A stretch of 61,130 nucleotides of DNA from assembly GCA_946401865.1 (NCBI GenBank), contig CAMIVO010000003.1, positions 1 through 61,130 of the forward strand. Reading direction: 5' to 3'. Of the stretch, positions 5,815-18,795 are shown piece by piece. The notes below the pieces were generated by a model that saw nothing but the letters and a program-made list of their open reading frames with translations, did no database searches and was not told the origin of the DNA. Source of the stretch: an uncultured Clostridia bacterium. Its GTDB lineage: Bacteria; Bacillota; Clostridia; TANB77; CAG-508. The position numbers and the translations under genes were made by a program. Position 1 is the first letter of the stretch. Each line of letters starts with the position of its first letter.

Positions 5815-5843
5815 TTGAATTAAAAGATATTTTGAGTTAAAAT
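5815..5843 (+). promoter_or_regulatory. Putative sigma-A-type promoter for the pilus operon
   Basis: TTGAAT, 17-nt spacer, TAAAAT, preceded by an A-rich tract. About 50 nt upstream of ATG 5893. Confidence 0.35.
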
Positions 5844-5892
5844 AAAAAAAGAAATGTGAGTAATTTTTTTATTATAGAGGAGGAAATTAATT

Positions 5893-6999
5893 ATGGCATC
5901 AAATCCAATGCAAAGACAAGCAAGAAACTTTTTCTTATTAGGAATGGCTATAACAATAGTAATAGCAGGAGTTATAGTAGCTCTTTTATTTATGCAAATG
6001 AAAAACGTAAACGAAGAAAATCAGAGGTTGAAAGGATCAATGCAAAATGTATATGTATTAACTCAAAATGTTAATTCAGGAGATGTGTTAACAGCAGACA
6101 TGTTTCAACTAGCAAATGCTTCTATAACATCTATTCCTGGAGATTATGCTGAAGTATCAACTTTATTATCTGCATACTCATTGTATACAAAAGATGGAAC
6201 AAAAATAACAGCTGAGTATACAAGTGATAATGCTACAAATAAACCTGTTCAACATTTATATTTAAATGGAGATAAAAATTCAGAAGTGTTAAAAGATGAG
6301 GTAACAGGAAATTATTATATCCTAAGAAATAATAATAGAGAGTACATAGAAACTGCAACAGCACCAGTAATTGCAAAAATTGATGCTAAGGCAAATACAA
6401 TAATATCTCAATCTTTAATTGCAAGATCTAATGAAATATATACAGATGATGTAAGACAACAAGAATATAATGTTGTTGTTTTACCAATAGACTTACAAAC
6501 TGGTAATTATATAGATGTAAGATTACAATTACCTAATGGACAAGATTTTATAGTTGTATCTAAAAAACGTGTTACAATTCCAAATGTAGGTGGAGAGTTT
6601 TTAACAGATACTGTTCAAATGAACATGTCTGAGGATGAAATCTTATCTTTATCATGTGCAATTGTAGAAGCTTACAAAATAGAGGGTGCAAAATTATATG
6701 CAACAAAATATACAGAAGCAGGATTACAACAAGCGTCTAGTCCTACATATGTTGTAAATAATGAAGTTGCTAATCTTATGGATTCAGATCCAAATATAGT
6801 TAATAAAGCAAAAAGTGCTCTAAGTGCTAGATATAATAGTAATAATTTAAAGGCTATGAGAGAACAATATATAAATAATACATTAACTCAACAAGGAAAT
6901 GAAGAAGGATATAAAACAAAAGTTGATGAAAGTATTCAATCAACACAAGAATCTAGACAAAAATATTTACAATCATTATCTGGAACAGTAACACAATAG
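5893..6999 (+). CDS. CpaB/RcpC-like Flp pilus assembly protein (N-terminal TM plus SAF-like domain)
   Basis: Strong RBS agaggagg. TM is FFLLGMAITIVIAGVIVALLF, followed by VYVLTQNVNSGDVLTADMF, which resembles the SAF domain of CpaB. First gene of the Tad-like cluster. Confidence 0.6.
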   Translation: MASNPMQRQARNFFLLGMAITIVIAGVIVALLFMQMKNVNEENQRLKGSMQNVYVLTQNVNSGDVLTADMFQLANASITSIPGDYAEVSTLLSAYSLYTKDGTKITAEYTSDNATNKPVQHLYLNGDKNSEVLKDEVTGNYYILRNNNREYIETATAPVIAKIDAKANTIISQSLIARSNEIYTDDVRQQEYNVVVLPIDLQTGNYIDVRLQLPNGQDFIVVSKKRVTIPNVGGEFLTDTVQMNMSEDEILSLSCAIVEAYKIEGAKLYATKYTEAGLQQASSPTYVVNNEVANLMDSDPNIVNKAKSALSARYNSNNLKAMREQYINNTLTQQGNEEGYKTKVDESIQSTQESRQKYLQSLSGTVTQ

Positions 7000-7024
7000 A
7001 AAAAATAAAATGAAAGGATTTACT

Positions 7025-16283: not shown

Positions 16284-16802
16284 ATGGGAGATTCAGCAAC
16301 AACAATAATTGCAATTTTTTTAGCTGCAATACTAATGTTTGTTTTTCCACTAATGACAATGGCAGATAAAACAGATGATACTGTTAAATTAACTGTACAA
16401 ACAGCAACAACAGATTTTACAAATAAAGTTAGAACTACAGGAATTTTATCACAAGAAGATTATGATAATTTTATATTAACTTTAAGTTCTACAAATAATT
16501 CATATGATGCAGAAATTGTAGTTCAAAAAATAGATGAAAATCCAGCTAAAAAAGCAGGAGGAGCTACAGTTCAAATAGGAGATAATGTATATTATACTAT
16601 GTATACAACACAAGTTCTTGAATCTTTACCATTAAATTTAAAAGAGGGAGATATTATATCTGTAACAGTAAAAAATACAAATAATACTATAGCTACTCAA
16701 CTAAGAAATTTTATGTATAAGGTTACAGGAAATGAATCAAAAGCTATAACTGCACAAAGTTCAGGTATTGTTACTAAAACAACAACAAAAACAACAAAAT
16801 AG
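16284..16802 (+). CDS. TadE-like minor pilin / pilus assembly protein
   Basis: ATG 16284 lies 7 nt after RBS aaggaag. N-terminus MGDSATTIIAIFLAAILMFVFPLMTM resembles the TadE-type hydrophobic N-terminus. The C-terminus has a Thr/Lys-rich tail. Confidence 0.45.
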   Translation: MGDSATTIIAIFLAAILMFVFPLMTMADKTDDTVKLTVQTATTDFTNKVRTTGILSQEDYDNFILTLSSTNNSYDAEIVVQKIDENPAKKAGGATVQIGDNVYYTMYTTQVLESLPLNLKEGDIISVTVKNTNNTIATQLRNFMYKVTGNESKAITAQSSGIVTKTTTKTTK

Positions 16803-16902
16803 TATGAATTTTGAATTATATAAAGGAGGAACAAACATGTAATTTTTTTAAAAAAGTTAGATGTTTGTTCCTATTTATTTTATACATAAGAAAGGATAGG
16901 TC

Positions 16903-18768
16903 ATGAAAATACAAAGTTTAGCAATAATATTTATAATAATAATTATGCCAATAACAATTGTTTTATCAGAGTATATTAACAACAAAATAACAACAGCAAC
17001 AACAGAACTGGAATATAATACAAGACTCTTAAATTCAACTTATGATTCTATAAAGGCATATCAGCTAAATACTGTAAATAATGCGTTTGGAGATGTTACA
17101 AATTCTAAAATCTCAGACATAGAAGCAGCAGTTACTACATTTTATAATTCTCTTGCAAATAATTTTAATTTTACTGGATACAAAGCAACTGTTATGAAAG
17201 AATATGTTCCAGCTGTTGCGTTTACTTTATATGATGGATATTATATTTATTCACCTTTTAAAAATACTTTGACAGGTGTAGAAGAGAGCAAAGTTGATAA
17301 AAATTATAGTAAACCAGATGCTATAACAAATGGACTAAAACCGTATATTTATTACAGTGCAAGATATGTATATGATACTTCAGATTTTGTTATAAATTAT
17401 ACATTAGATAATTATATTACTTTAATAGGTATTATTAATAATAATTATGTATATGATAGTGGATTTTTATACTCTATTGCAGATACTAGAGATGAATCTA
17501 ATAAAGGAAATGGAATTTATTATGATTCATTAGACAATTCTTACTGGTTTGATGGTATTAAATTTACAGCTGGCGATACAGAAGAACTAAAAGAGTATAT
17601 TGGTGAAAAGGAATATAGTTATGCTAGAATTAATGGACAAAAATATTATTTAGAAGAAAATGAAGTTGAAGAAGAAACTATAAACTATAATGGACAAAAT
17701 TTTAGTATTAATAAAAAAGCAAAATTTTTCTTTATAGATAATAAAGGTGCAAAAAATTACAGTAATGTTGATGCTTATAATGCTACAAATAGTAATTTTA
17801 TAAAATATTATTTTGCAATAAAGAAAAATAAAAGTGCATATATTTATTATAAAAAAGCATATGAATTTTCTAGCATGATTTTGGGAAAAAAGATAGATAA
17901 TTATTATGATAAGACTAAAGCAAAGCAAGATAAAGCTTATAGTTTAAATAATTTAAACACATCAAAGGCTATATATTATGGTAATGATGAAAGTTCGTTA
18001 AAAAAATCAGGTATCACTCCTCTTTCTGAATATGGAGATTTCAAAATTTTTGAAGGAAATATACACTCAGCAAATTCTAATTTTAACAAACATAGAAAAG
18101 AAATCATAAGATATGTAATAGAAACAAATATGGCTCCTGCAATTTCTGGATTTTCATCAGATGCAAACATTGAGTTTGTAATGCCAAAAATTTCTGAAAC
18201 AGATTGGGAAACAATTCAAAATGACATATGTGAAATAACATTTTTACAAGGTTTAAATATGGGTTCTAAAAAATACAATGGGTATTCTGTTGTTGCAAAT
18301 ATGCTTACAAAAGAATATGTTGATGAGGATGATATTTATATTTTAAAAGGTGATAATACATATTGCAAAGCAAATGATAGTACACTTAATGAAACAAATA
18401 TAAAAAATACAAAAGGAGTAAATAATGGATATTATCCAGGAATATGGAAAATAAATTTTGAAAGAAAAAGAGATATAAGTGGAGATAAAGAAAAGTTTTA
18501 TTTTCCTATGAGTTTTAAAAATGGTGAAAAGATAGAAAGCTATTTAGGTAGTTATACAAGTATAATGGGAAGCTCGGGAGTTAATGAGATTGGAACATCA
18601 GATGTTCCTGATATGTACTCATATATGCACCACAATAAGGAGCATTTATTAAAAGAGATTTATTACAAGGCATTAGGGAGAGAAAGATGGTGTTCATTCA
18701 ATATAAATAATATTAATTATGAAATATATGGAAATAATGCAAATAACTTTTTCTTAGAAGATTATTAA
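16903..18768 (+). CDS. Large pilus-associated protein (TadG-like / tip-adhesin candidate) with an N-terminal TM
   Basis: 621 aa, N-terminus LAIIFIIIIMPITIVLSEY, Tyr/Asn-rich extracellular region. Last gene of the cluster, followed by a terminator. Confidence 0.4.
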   Translation: MKIQSLAIIFIIIIMPITIVLSEYINNKITTATTELEYNTRLLNSTYDSIKAYQLNTVNNAFGDVTNSKISDIEAAVTTFYNSLANNFNFTGYKATVMKEYVPAVAFTLYDGYYIYSPFKNTLTGVEESKVDKNYSKPDAITNGLKPYIYYSARYVYDTSDFVINYTLDNYITLIGIINNNYVYDSGFLYSIADTRDESNKGNGIYYDSLDNSYWFDGIKFTAGDTEELKEYIGEKEYSYARINGQKYYLEENEVEEETINYNGQNFSINKKAKFFFIDNKGAKNYSNVDAYNATNSNFIKYYFAIKKNKSAYIYYKKAYEFSSMILGKKIDNYYDKTKAKQDKAYSLNNLNTSKAIYYGNDESSLKKSGITPLSEYGDFKIFEGNIHSANSNFNKHRKEIIRYVIETNMAPAISGFSSDANIEFVMPKISETDWETIQNDICEITFLQGLNMGSKKYNGYSVVANMLTKEYVDEDDIYILKGDNTYCKANDSTLNETNIKNTKGVNNGYYPGIWKINFERKRDISGDKEKFYFPMSFKNGEKIESYLGSYTSIMGSSGVNEIGTSDVPDMYSYMHHNKEHLLKEIYYKALGRERWCSFNINNINYEIYGNNANNFFLEDY

Positions 18769-18795
18769 AAGCAAGAATATCTCTTGCTTTTTATT
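18769..18795 (+). terminator. Rho-independent terminator ending the pilus cluster
   Basis: Stem agcaaga / tcttgct followed by a T-run. Confidence 0.7.

What the first reader, a model, noticed from the sequence alone, without database searches (positions are those of the whole stretch)
5815..18795. Tad/Flp-like (type IVc) pilus locus with non-canonical parts and no prepilin peptidase, wedged between spoIIIAH and recJ
**Gene order seen:** CpaB-like SAF protein; two ParA/MinD-fold proteins lacking a Walker A lysine; a CpaF-like ATPase; one 690-aa platform protein whose C-terminus looks T2SSF-like; six paralogous small pilin-like proteins; a MITE-like element; a TadE-like protein; a 621-aa TM-anchored protein; a terminator.

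**What is missing:**
- A TadV/CpaA/PilD-type polytopic aspartyl prepilin peptidase.
- Any Flp-type G/XXXXEY motif or type IVa G/FTLIE motif.
- A secretin, as expected for a monoderm.

The locus is bounded on the left by a ~190-bp palindromic element and is interrupted by a 165-bp one, which is consistent with accessory or mobile history. As a whole it looks like a divergent, poorly characterised branch of the type IV filament superfamily in a spore former.
Basis: partly seen in the sequence, partly recalled or inferred. Interest (0 to 1): 0.72.

Follow-up and report, generated by a model that had tools for sequence, protein, structure and literature searches.

The report
Published Tad-like pilus locus of TANB77
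This is a real, very divergent pilus-assembly gene cluster of uncultured gut Clostridia (order TANB77) that was already described in 2024, although how its unusual subunits mature without a nearby processing peptidase is still unexplained.

Summary
It is collinear in all 80 related species genomes I fetched, and the scan confirmed at least 552 matching stretches. It is the "pilus gene cluster exclusively conserved in TANB77" published by Kim et al. 2024 (PMC11680825). The gene sizes and order match their proteins 927-938.

Sequence evidence links only the ATPase to Tad: Caulobacter CpaF is the only significant solved-structure match (E about 1e-8). A CpaB-like N-terminus and two ParA/MinD-like proteins are weak matches. 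The 695-aa platform and all small proteins match no curated family.

Points not in that paper:
- The five "MEN" pilin-like proteins start at an invariant Met-Glu-Asn (303 proteins, 80 species), with no room for a longer leader.
- Residue 7 is Ala in 99%, followed by a roughly 21-residue hydrophobic helix.
- No A24 peptidase lies within 10 kb of the locus in any of the 80 species.
- A conserved promoter follows 11-bp-spaced TTACAAA repeats.

The "mobile history" reading fails. The block is order-wide core, and the palindromic elements are species-level repeats.

Verdict: already known, with moderate residual interest.

The parts
5556..5771 (.). Left palindromic repeated element (nested inverted repeats). 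It is not part of the conserved system.
   Evidence: The inverted repeats are 5556-5596/5731-5771, 5606-5617/5705-5716 and 5627-5646/5679-5698. Copies of its core occur only in the two closest relatives, L001 and L002, at other positions too.
5757..5790 (+). Operator-like direct repeats, ATATTACAAAA x2-3 with 11-bp spacing, upstream of the operon promoter.
   Evidence: 61 of 71 loci with usable upstream sequence have at least one TTACAAA within 400 nt upstream of g1, usually 120-145 nt from the start codon.
5815..5843 (+). Likely operon promoter: TTGAAT, 17-nt spacer, TAAAAT.
   Evidence: Found by the consensus scan. The same TTGATT...TAAAAT arrangement follows the repeats in other species.
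5893..6999 (+). g1: CpaB/RcpC-like protein with one transmembrane helix (368 aa).
   Evidence: TIGR03177 gives 24.3 bits, E 1.6e-5, over residues 15-82, below the cutoff. There is also a weak FlgA/SAF-type hit. Kim et al. protein 927 resembles CpaB by Foldseek. A profile of the family finds nothing in the PDB sequence set.
7010..7738 (+). g2: TadZ-like degenerate ParA/MinD protein. The probable start is 7025.
   Evidence: The profile matches MinD only weakly (E 0.06). G13, D16 and K17 (G-A-Y/F-D-K-T) are invariant or nearly so. Kim et al. protein 928 resembles TadZ by Foldseek.
7750..8586 (+). g3: CpaE/TadZ-like degenerate ParA/MinD protein.
   Evidence: The profile matches a ParA-family ATPase, 3ea0, at E 0.003. 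The P-loop position is Thr here and Lys in 24 of 40 orthologues. Kim et al. protein 929 resembles CpaE.
8619..10625 (+). g4: membrane-anchored TadA/CpaF-type assembly ATPase (668 aa).
   Evidence: TIGR03819 gives E 3e-10, and Pfam T2SSE gives 19.7 bits. CpaF is the only significant solved-structure match (E 6e-8 for the single sequence, 1.6e-8 for the profile), with VirB11 at 0.028. Walker A is GEQGCGKTT. There is an N-terminal transmembrane helix.
10635..12722 (+). g5: polytopic platform candidate (689-695 aa, 8 predicted transmembrane helices).
   Evidence: The hydropathy map shows 8 segments. It is 59-91% identical across species. No Pfam, NCBIfam or PDB sequence hit appears for the window protein or for 35 orthologues. 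TadC-like (first half) and TadB-like (second half) rests only on the published Foldseek result. My AF2 model failed at pLDDT 43.5.
12766..13521 (+). g6: MEN-family pilin-like protein (251 aa, GTG start).
   Evidence: The N-terminus is MENASKALLMAGG. hhalign against g7, g9 and g10 gives 99.6-99.9% probability.
13539..13958 (+). g7: MEN-family pilin-like protein (139 aa).
13974..14405 (+). g8: paralogue with the MEN-family head but an MKK-plus-helix N-terminus (143 aa).
   Evidence: hhalign against g6, g7, g9 and g10 gives 94-98.5% probability outside the N-terminus. Its identity across species is among the higher of the small proteins, 36-76%.
14495..14920 (+). g9: MEN-family protein and candidate major subunit (141 aa).
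   Evidence: It has a strong Shine-Dalgarno sequence, AAGGAGG. hhalign against g10 gives 100%. This subfamily is tandemly duplicated in several species.
14969..15406 (+). g10: MEN-family protein and candidate major subunit (145 aa).
   Evidence: The AF2 model has pLDDT 86.6, with helices at 2-39 and 43-56 followed by an alpha/beta head. More than 7,000 relatives were found, none named beyond "hypothetical protein" in the 120 listed. 5,283 cluster representatives match.
15444..16016 (+). g11: pilin-like protein with a MEN N-terminus and a different head (190 aa).
   Evidence: It begins MENVSDAL. It is related to the others only over residues 1-48.
16016..16180 (.). 165-bp palindromic element inserted in the g11-g12 spacer. 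It is not part of the conserved system.
   Evidence: The inverted repeats are 16016-30/16166-80 and 16049-72/16123-46. A second partial copy lies at window 1-54 with 94% identity. No copy occurs in any of the 80 loci.
16190..16245 (+). Internal promoter ahead of g12: one ATTACAAAAAT repeat, then TTGCAA, 17-nt spacer, TG-n-TATAAT.
   Evidence: Kim et al. also predict a separate promoter for protein 937.
16284..16802 (+). g12: small protein with one transmembrane helix and a conserved MGD[ST] N-terminus (172 aa from ATG 16284).
   Evidence: Orthologues start MGD[ST]xxTxIAI.LAA.LMFVFPLM. No TadE or other family hit. It is not detectably related to the MEN family.
16903..18768 (+). g13: large N-terminally anchored protein (621 aa), candidate tip or adhesin subunit. 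It corresponds to "pilin 938" of Kim et al.
   Evidence: The N-terminus MK[IL]Q.LA[VI]IF is conserved. Length ranges from 448 to 1239 aa among species. No Pfam, NCBIfam or PDB hit. In the paper, the recombinant orthologue activated dendritic cells through TLR4.
18767..18791 (+). Intrinsic terminator closing the operon.
   Evidence: It has a 10-bp stem, a 5-nt loop and a T-rich tail.

Best explanation
The locus encodes a Tad-type (type IVc-like) filament machine of a monoderm gut Clostridium of the uncultured order TANB77.

**Proposed mechanism (inferred unless marked otherwise).**
- A membrane-anchored hexameric TadA/CpaF-like ATPase (g4) drives a single two-domain polytopic platform (g5).
- The platform extracts subunits from the membrane. 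Each subunit has one N-terminal hydrophobic helix, and the subunits stack through those helices.
- g9 and g10 are the likely major subunits. g6, g7, g8, g11 and g12 are likely minor or priming subunits.
- g13 is a large, variable tip or adhesin subunit.
- g1 (CpaB-like) and g2/g3 (TadZ/CpaE-like degenerate ParA/MinD proteins) scaffold and position the machine.
- Transcription starts at a conserved promoter (5815-5843), which is preceded by 11-bp-spaced TTACAAA repeats that look like a regulator binding site.
- Either an unlinked A24 peptidase cuts the subunits after the near-invariant Ala7 (MENASKA|L), or they are not cut at all.

**Shown here:** gene content, order-wide synteny, the ATPase's affinity to CpaF, the N-terminal motif, and the absence of a linked peptidase.

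**Not shown by anyone:** the filament itself, the subunit roles, subunit processing and the function (adhesion or colonisation).
For: - The ATPase matches the TadA family (TIGR03819, E 3e-10). CpaF is its only significant solved-structure relative.
- g1 has a CpaB N-terminal match. g2 and g3 are weakly ParA/MinD-like with atypical P-loops.
- The gene order, CpaB-like / two TadZ-like / ATPase / platform / subunits, is that of Tad loci.
- The block is collinear in all 80 species fetched. The machinery is highly conserved and the putative surface subunits are fast-evolving.
- The AF2 model of g10 shows an N-terminal helix of about 55 residues followed by a small alpha/beta head, at pLDDT 86.6.
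- The MEN family forms a paralogous set of five to six proteins, as expected for one major plus several minor pilins.
- Kim et al. 2024 found structural matches to CpaB, TadZ, CpaE, TadA, TadC plus TadB, and TadE/PilV.
Against: - No filament has been seen, and TANB77 is uncultured.
- g5 matches no T2SSF model in any of 35 orthologues, and my structure model of it failed.
- The small proteins match no pilin family (Flp, TadE, N_methyl, archaeal Pilin_N) in 144 sequences.
- The confident g10 model matches no solved pilin (best Foldseek E 2.2).
- There is no Gly at -1 and no Glu at +5.
- No prepilin peptidase lies in the locus in any of the 80 species.
- All HMM scores for g1-g4 are far below the curated family cut-offs.
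Confidence: 0.72

Rival explanations
1. Peptidase-independent variant. The MEN-family subunits are assembled with their native N-terminus (Met1-Glu2-Asn3...). The system then needs no prepilin peptidase. Glu2 together with the free N-terminus would play the role that Glu5 and the processed N-terminus play in classical type IV pilins.
For: - Met1, Glu2 and Asn3 are invariant in 303 proteins from 80 species, and Ala4 is 96% conserved.
- In 280 of 303 proteins no longer reading frame is possible. In-frame stops lie 2-10 codons upstream in the window.
- The codons vary synonymously, so selection acts on the protein.
- Classical leaders vary in length (PMC10191384).
- No A24 signature or homologue was found in 1.6 Mb around the locus in 80 species.
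- All 149 full-length proteins among the 150 listed matches align from their residue 1; the one exception is a fragment.
Against: - Whole TANB77 genomes could not be searched, so an unlinked peptidase is not excluded.
- Peptidases are known to be shared between systems, and MSH loci lack one (PMC6668835).
- Ala7 (99%), followed by a hydrophobic stretch, fits a 7-residue leader of classical length.
- The window encodes another protein with a prepilin-looking N-terminus (56411, MKKQKNTG|ITLIAL). This hints that a peptidase exists in the genome, although HMM support is faint.
- No precedent was found in the literature.
Confidence: 0.2
2. The machine makes a short pseudopilus for DNA uptake or protein secretion, like the Com pilus or a type II secretion system, rather than a long adhesive pilus.
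For: The layout of one major plus several minor pilin-like proteins resembles Com and type II secretion systems (PMC10191384 Table 1). From memory, and not checked here: Tad-type machines mediate transformation in Micrococcus.
Against: - ComGA scores only 16.5 bits against a cutoff of 300.
- No DNA-uptake or other competence genes were identified among the neighbours: the window's flanks are sporulation genes, recJ and relA/spoT, and the usual neighbours in other species are a Cof-type HAD gene and spoIVB.
- A large, length-variable, anchored g13 fits an adhesin better.
Confidence: 0.06
3. The block is a conjugation-related, mobile or sporulation-linked membrane complex, as its position next to spoIIIA and its palindromic elements might suggest.
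For: - The best NCBIfam hit for the ATPase is named "TadA family conjugal transfer-associated ATPase".
- The locus abuts spoIIIAH here, and spoIVB in most other species.
- Palindromic repeats flank and interrupt it.
Against: - That hit scores 39.8 bits against a cutoff of 373. TrbB scores 19.8 against 304.
- None of the 13 locus proteins matches any conjugation family other than these weak ATPase hits.
- The block is collinear in all 80 species genomes fetched, and the scan confirmed at least 552 matching stretches. Its G+C is uniform with the surroundings.
- The spoIIIA/recJ position is shared only with the two closest relatives.
- The palindromic elements are absent from the other 78 loci.
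Confidence: 0.02

Closest known systems
TANB77 conserved pilus gene cluster, proteins 927-938 of HRGM_Genome_2725 (Kim et al. 2024, Nat Commun 15:10726, PMC11680825)
   Same: - Same lineage: locus L058 is Clostridium sp. CAG:245, which that paper places in TANB77.
- Same gene order.
- Near-identical protein sizes: 358/231/280/640/693, several small proteins, then 178/621, against 368/242/278/668/695, several small proteins, then 178/621 here.
- Same absence of database matches for the small proteins.
   Different: It is essentially the same entity in another species. Here it lies between spoIIIAH and recJ and carries a 165-bp palindromic insertion. The paper does not discuss the N-terminal motif, leader processing, a prepilin peptidase, the upstream repeats or microscopy.
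Tad / Flp (type IVc) pilus of Aggregatibacter and Caulobacter (TadZ-TadA-TadB-TadC, Flp, TadE/F, TadV, RcpC/CpaB)
   Same: - The ATPase is CpaF/TadA-like.
- A CpaB-like protein and TadZ/CpaE-like degenerate ParA/MinD proteins precede the ATPase.
- There is a single ATPase.
- The genes are clustered.
   Different: - The platform is one 695-aa gene, not split into TadB and TadC.
- The subunits are 140-250 aa with a folded head, not 50-80-aa Flp (size from memory). They have no G/XXXXEY motif.
- No TadV lies in the locus.
- The ATPase has an N-terminal membrane anchor.
- There is no secretin, as expected for a monoderm.
Archaeal type IV pili with two-domain platforms (Denise et al. 2019, PMC6668835)
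   Same: - The platform is a single gene. Its first half is TadC-like and its second half TadB-like (Kim et al.). That is the domain order reported for archaeal two-domain platforms.
- Ala at the putative -1 position is accepted by archaeal peptidases (from memory).
   Different: - The ATPase matches bacterial CpaF and no archaeal FlaI or GspE-type chain in the PDB.
- CpaB is a bacterial Tad component.
- No phylogeny was made here.
MSHA pilus loci
   Same: The locus lacks its own prepilin peptidase. The published explanation is that one is borrowed from another system.
   Different: MSHA is a proteobacterial type IVa derivative with canonical pilins, and it is unrelated in sequence.

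Membership tests
Tad / type IVc pilus system | TadA/CpaF-type assembly ATPase | tested here: met
   TIGR03819 gives E 3e-10. CpaF is the only significant PDB relative (E 6e-8 for the single sequence, 1.6e-8 for the profile). 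Walker A is intact. All scores are far below the curated cut-offs, so this is a remote member.
Tad / type IVc pilus system | TadZ: ParA/MinD-type protein with an atypical Walker A | tested here: inconclusive
   Profiles of g2 and g3 hit MinD and ParA only at E 0.06 and 0.003. Their P-loops are atypical. The Foldseek matches to TadZ and CpaE are reported only in PMC11680825.
Tad / type IVc pilus system | Two separate platform genes (TadB and TadC), each with one T2SSF domain | tested here: not met
   There is one 689-695-aa gene in all 80 loci. No T2SSF hit appears in 35 orthologues. The two halves are not detectably homologous to each other.
Tad / type IVc pilus system | Flp-type major pilin (short, G/XXXXEY) | tested here: not met
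   No Flp_Fap hit in 144 small proteins. The N-terminal consensus is MENA[ST]KAL, with no Gly-x4-Glu-Tyr. The proteins are 130-300 aa.
Tad / type IVc pilus system | TadV/CpaA prepilin peptidase | tested here: not met
   For the locus and 10-kb flanks in 80 species, and for the 61-kb window, there is no GxGD-type polytopic ORF and no GspO homologue. The rest of the genome could not be searched.
Tad / type IVc pilus system | RcpC/CpaB protein | tested here: inconclusive
   TIGR03177 scores 24.3 bits against a cutoff of 71, covering only residues 15-82. The family profile finds nothing in the PDB. A structural match is reported in PMC11680825.
Tad / type IVc pilus system | TadE/TadF pseudopilins | tested here: not met
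   No TadE (PF07811) hit for g12, g13 or any small protein. Kim et al. report a partial TadE/PilV-like fold for the N-terminal quarter of protein 938.
Type IV pilins (class III signal peptide) | Hydrophilic leader ending in Gly or Ala | tested here: inconclusive
   MENASKA ends in Ala7 (99% Ala, 1% Gly). That fits the definition in PMC10191384. However, the leader is invariant in sequence and length, and cleavage is untested.
Type IV pilins (class III signal peptide) | A 20-25-residue hydrophobic stretch forming the N-terminal part of a long helix | tested here: met
   Residues 8-28 are hydrophobic. AF2 predicts helices at 2-39 and 43-56 with pLDDT 89-93 over residues 1-20.
Type IV pilins (class III signal peptide) | Glu at mature position 5 | tested here: not met
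   If cleavage is after Ala7, position +5 is Gly or Ala. The only invariant acidic residue is Glu2. The feature is frequent but not obligatory.
Type IV pilins (class III signal peptide) | Lollipop fold similar to solved pilins | tested here: inconclusive
   The order of secondary-structure elements is compatible. Foldseek finds no pilin in the PDB (best E 2.2) or in BFVD.
Competence (Com) pilus | ComGA-type ATPase and ComGB platform | tested here: not met
   ComGA (NF041000) scores 16.5 bits against a cutoff of 300. There is no ComGB or T2SSF hit.
Conjugative type IV secretion | VirB11/TrbB ATPase together with VirB4, a coupling protein and a relaxase | tested here: not met
   TrbB scores 19.8 bits against 304, and VirB11 reaches only E 0.028. 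None of the 13 locus proteins matches any other conjugation family.

The most novel reading that the evidence does not exclude
The most novel reading my evidence does not exclude has two parts.

1. The TANB77 system is a type IV filament that works without a prepilin peptidase. Its subunits keep an invariant Met-Glu-Asn N-terminus that substitutes for the processed N-terminus and Glu5 of classical pilins.
2. Its unsplit platform, TadC-like then TadB-like, is the ancestral archaeal-type state rather than a re-fusion. That would make it a lineage branching before, or outside, the Tad/Epd gene fission.
Probability: 0.15. Interest if true: 0.75.

Novelty: already known. Interest (0 to 1): 0.38.

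Why it matters
**Why the locus draws attention.** The cluster marks an abundant, uncultured order of gut bacteria. Its abundance, and that of its pilin-like genes, has been linked to response to cancer immunotherapy. One product, the orthologue of g13, was reported to activate dendritic cells through TLR4 (PMC11680825).

**What is still open.** Nothing is known about how the machine is built.

**If the subunits are assembled unprocessed.** Reviews list four components as universal in type IV filaments: pilin, peptidase, ATPase and platform. Unprocessed assembly would mean the peptidase is dispensable.

**If the single platform gene is ancestral.** That would bear on the proposed archaeal origin of Tad pili.

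**Practical handles.** The invariant N-terminal motif and the conserved operator-like repeats can be used for detection, for metaproteomic searches, and for finding the regulator.

Tried and rejected
- **Curated libraries on all 13 proteins.** Pfam and NCBIfam gave nothing above any curated cut-off.
- **Solved-structure sequence searches.** Single-sequence searches of g5 and g13 and family-profile searches for g5, g2, g3 and g1 gave nothing useful beyond weak ParA/MinD hits.
- **Pfam on orthologue sets.** Scans of 35 platform orthologues and 144 small proteins found no T2SSF, Flp, TadE, N_methyl or archaeal pilin family. The only faint hit of possible relevance is DUF4320, in 6 members, best E 0.04.
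- **AF2 on the platform.** The model was unusable at pLDDT 43.5, because every listed homologue I could hand in was at least 83% identical. I did not search with it.
- **Foldseek on the pilin-like model.** The confident g10 model gave no match better than E 0.7 against the PDB or BFVD.
- **Internal duplication in g5.** Not detectable by hhalign.
- **Distant relatives with longer leaders.** The deep profile search lists only its best 150 matches. All 149 full-length ones start at residue 1, so distant relatives could not be inspected.
- **Rfam and tRNA scans.** Nothing lies in the locus.
- **The prepilin-looking 641-aa protein at 56411.** A contig look-up found no record of it.
- **Literature on leaderless or peptidase-independent pilins.** The search returned nothing.
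- **Rejected readings.** I rejected a mobile-element, conjugation or sporulation role; the reasons are given under the rival explanations.

Full report
**What is in the sequence**

The window has about 26% G+C throughout. Between spoIIIAH (4879-5535) and a recJ gene split into two ORFs (18865-20055 and 20012-20569), thirteen + strand ORFs are tightly packed. All coordinates are in the parts list.

- The left palindrome is a set of nested inverted repeats spanning 5556-5771.
- The internal palindrome is at 16016-16180.

**Is it more than chance?**

The ATPase g4 has more than 7,400 relatives in the protein collection. A scan of one genome per species confirmed at least 552 stretches that encode a relative. 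The best 80 loci are all uncultured gut or rumen Clostridia, including Clostridium sp. CAG:245, CAG:780 and Candidatus Merdicola.

tblastn with all window proteins shows the entire g1-g13 block collinear in essentially every locus:

| Component | Identity to the window protein |
|---|---|
| ATPase g4 | 73-97% |
| Platform g5 | 59-91% |
| All other genes | mostly 25-60% |

The spoIIIA flank is shared only with the two closest relatives. Elsewhere the usual neighbours are a Cof-type HAD hydrolase upstream (53 of 75 loci) and SpoIVB peptidase downstream (42 of 60 loci). The block is therefore a conserved core unit of the lineage that has been relocated in this genus. It is not an accessory island.

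**It is already published**

A full-text search for TANB77 and pilus returned Kim et al. 2024, Nat Commun 15:10726 (PMC11680825). Their Table 1 lists a cluster "exclusively conserved" in the order TANB77:

| Their protein | Size | Their assignment |
|---|---|---|
| 927 | 358 aa | CpaB |
| 928 | 231 aa | TadZ-like |
| 929 | 280 aa | CpaE-like |
| 930 | 640 aa, 1 TM helix | TadA/CpaF |
| 931 | 693 aa, 8 TM helices | first half TadC-like, second half TadB-like (Foldseek) |
| 932-937 | small | pilin-like, no homology found |
| 938 | 621 aa | N-terminal quarter TadE/PilV-like |

Recombinant 938 activated dendritic cells through TLR4. The match to the window in sizes and order is exact, and CAG-245 is named there as a TANB77 genus. 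The paper never mentions a leader, an N-terminal motif, a peptidase or electron microscopy.

**What the sequence evidence supports on its own**

- **ATPase g4.** This is the only component tied firmly to a known family.
  - Pfam T2SSE scores 19.7 bits and TIGR03819 (TadA family) gives E 3e-10.
  - Among solved structures, only Caulobacter CpaF is significant: E 6e-8 with the single sequence and 1.6e-8 with a family profile.
  - VirB11 reaches 0.028. No archaeal FlaI, PilB, PilT or GspE chain appears.
  - Walker A is intact. Unusually, there is an N-terminal membrane helix.
- **g1.** It has a weak CpaB match over residues 15-82.
- **g2 and g3.** Family profiles touch MinD and ParA only weakly, at E 0.06 and 0.003.
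  - In g2 the P-loop is G-A-[YF]-D-K-T with an invariant Lys.
  - In g3 the equivalent position is Thr here and Lys in only 24 of 40 orthologues.
- **Platform g5.** It has eight predicted transmembrane helices.
  - It has no Pfam, NCBIfam or PDB sequence match, neither for the window protein nor for 35 orthologues scanned one by one.
  - Its two halves are not detectably related to each other.
  - My AF2 run failed at pLDDT 43.5. Every listed homologue I could hand in was at least 83% identical.
  - Its platform identity therefore rests on the published Foldseek result.

**The small proteins**

Profile-profile comparison gives this picture:

| Proteins | Relationship |
|---|---|
| g6, g7, g9, g10 | full paralogues (99.6-100% probability) |
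| g8 | homologous in the head domain but with a different N-terminus (94-98.5%) |
| g11 | shares only the first 33-48 residues (about 97%) |
| g12, g13 | unrelated to the others |

None of 144 representatives hits any pilin or non-pilin family at a meaningful level.

An AF2 model of g10, built on a 70-sequence alignment, is confident (pLDDT 86.6). It shows helices at 2-39 and 43-56, followed by a strand, a helix and a four-stranded sheet. That order of elements fits a pilin-like "lollipop". Foldseek nevertheless finds no solved pilin, or anything else, with a best E of 2.2 in the PDB and 0.72 in BFVD.

**The N-terminus**

This is the main new observation. I collected 303 MEN-family proteins from 80 species.

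| Position | Conservation |
|---|---|
| Met1, Glu2, Asn3 | 100% |
| Ala4 | 96% |
| Ala7 | 99% (Gly 1%) |
| Leu8 | 98% |
| Ala11 | 95% |

- In 280 of 303 proteins the longest possible reading frame begins at that Met.
- In the window, in-frame stops lie 2-10 codons upstream.
- 275 of 291 genes have a Shine-Dalgarno-like sequence within 20 nt upstream.
- The codons vary synonymously (GAA/GAG, AAT/AAC, GCA/GCT/GCG), so selection acts on the protein.
- A profile search of 1.84 billion cluster representatives found 5,283 relatives. All 149 full-length proteins among the 150 listed align from their own residue 1; the one exception is a fragment.
- g13 has a similar layout, MK[IL]Q.LA followed by a hydrophobic run. 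g12 starts MGD[ST].

There is thus no Gly at -1 and no Glu at +5. Even so, MENASKA plus about 21 hydrophobic residues fits the published definition of a class III signal peptide. That definition requires a leader ending in Gly or Ala and treats Glu5 as frequent but not obligatory (PMC10191384). What does not fit is an invariant leader of fixed length.

**The peptidase**

- Every polytopic ORF in the 61-kb window belongs to another family: SpoIIIAE, an AI-2E transporter, a holin and others. PlsY and a PgsA-like protein I recognised by eye.
- A scan for polytopic ORFs carrying the GxGD[x][K/R] signature found none. A phmmer search using E. coli GspO, which itself carries GYGDFK, also found none. 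Both covered the window plus 80 loci, 1.6 Mb in all.
- So no species keeps a prepilin peptidase within 10 kb of the locus.
- Whole genomes could not be searched with the tools and caps available.
- Absence from the locus has precedent. All MSH loci lack one, and peptidases are exchangeable between systems (PMC6668835).
- The window also encodes a 641-aa protein beginning MKKQKNTG|ITLIALVV. It looks like a canonical prepilin signal, but it has only faint HMM support.

**Regulation and repeats**

- Upstream of g1, most species carry two or three direct repeats of ATATTACAAAA with 11-bp spacing. In the window these lie at 5757-5790.
- The repeats are followed by a TTGATT/TTGAAT -35 box and a TAAAAT -10 box, at 5815-5843 in the window.
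- One further repeat precedes an extended -10 promoter ahead of g12, at 16190-16245.
- This looks like the operator of a dedicated regulator, which remains unidentified.
- The core of the left palindrome recurs only in L001 and L002.
- The internal palindrome has a second copy at window 1-54 and none in the 80 loci. It explains the enlarged g11-g12 spacer.
- Both palindromes are repeated elements found only in this species or its two nearest relatives. They are not part of the system.

**Interpretation**

The best-supported reading (about 0.7) is a Tad-type filament machine of a monoderm, as already proposed in print. It departs from canonical Tad in four ways:

1. The platform is unsplit.
2. 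The ATPase is membrane-anchored.
3. The subunits have folded heads and are not Flp-type.
4. No peptidase is linked to the locus.

Denise et al. report that in archaeal two-domain platforms the N-terminal domain aligns with TadC and the C-terminal domain with TadB. That is the same order Kim et al. report for protein 931. A simple fusion of adjacent tadB-tadC genes would give the opposite order. I could not test this lead.

The most novel reading not excluded is assembly of unprocessed subunits. I put it at roughly 0.15-0.2.

**Verdict**

The finding is real and correctly read in outline. The locus is already described in the literature, so it is not a discovery. The residual interest lies in subunit maturation, the origin of the platform, and the still-missing demonstration of a filament.

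Noticed in passing
window 5757-5790 and 16190-16204; upstream of g1 in 61 of 71 loci with usable upstream sequence: There are direct repeats of ATATTACAAAA with 11-bp spacing just upstream of a conserved TTGATT/TAAAAT promoter. They are conserved across species whose proteins are only 40-50% identical. They are probably the operator of an unidentified regulator. An OmpR-type response regulator and kinase pair lies at 34908-36750, but nothing links it to these repeats.
   Followed up: partly
window 56411-58336 (+): A 641-aa protein begins MKKQKNTG|ITLIALVVTVVVLLIL. That is a canonical-looking prepilin signal with Ala in place of Glu5, and the gene stands alone next to the RNase P RNA gene. HMM support is faint (GspG N-terminus, E 0.045-0.12; a weak GLUG motif). 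If it is real, it implies a prepilin peptidase elsewhere in the genome.
   Followed up: partly
window 18865-20055 and 20012-20569 (+): recJ is split into two overlapping ORFs in different frames. The first carries the DHH domain and the second carries DHHA1 plus the RecJ OB domain. This is either a frameshift or pseudogene, or an assembly error.
   Followed up: no
window 16016-16180 and window 1-54: A 165-bp palindromic element lies in the g11-g12 spacer. A second copy, 94% identical over 54 nt, runs off the start of the window just upstream of spoIIIAA. It is a MITE- or REP-like repeat that has no copy in any of the 80 related loci.
   Followed up: partly
window 5556-5771; L001 1325-1448; L002 1093-1215 and 6945-7093: A palindromic element of about 216 bp has its core repeated at several places in the two closest relatives. 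It matches no Rfam family.
   Followed up: partly
window 8619-8700 (g4 residues 1-27): The CpaF-like ATPase carries an N-terminal transmembrane helix, followed by an N-terminal region of about 250 residues that lies outside its CpaF match. The helix is predicted for this protein and for the paper's orthologue, protein 930. From memory, type IV filament ATPases are normally soluble.
   Followed up: no
L008, L016, L033, L035 (g9/g10 region); L011 12391-13431 (g12 region): Copy number varies between species. The g9/g10-type gene is tandemly duplicated with identical N-termini in several species. L011 carries two g12 paralogues, and several other loci show an enlarged g11-g12 spacing.
   Followed up: no
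window 55866-56238 (+): Bacterial RNase P RNA class A (284 bits). It is the only Rfam match in the window, and no tRNA genes were found.
   Followed up: yes
144 small proteins from the 80 loci (alignment A6): Six members give faint hits to Pfam DUF4320 (best E 0.04). From memory, that family occurs in Firmicutes Tad-like loci, so it may be a remote link worth a profile-profile test.
   Followed up: no
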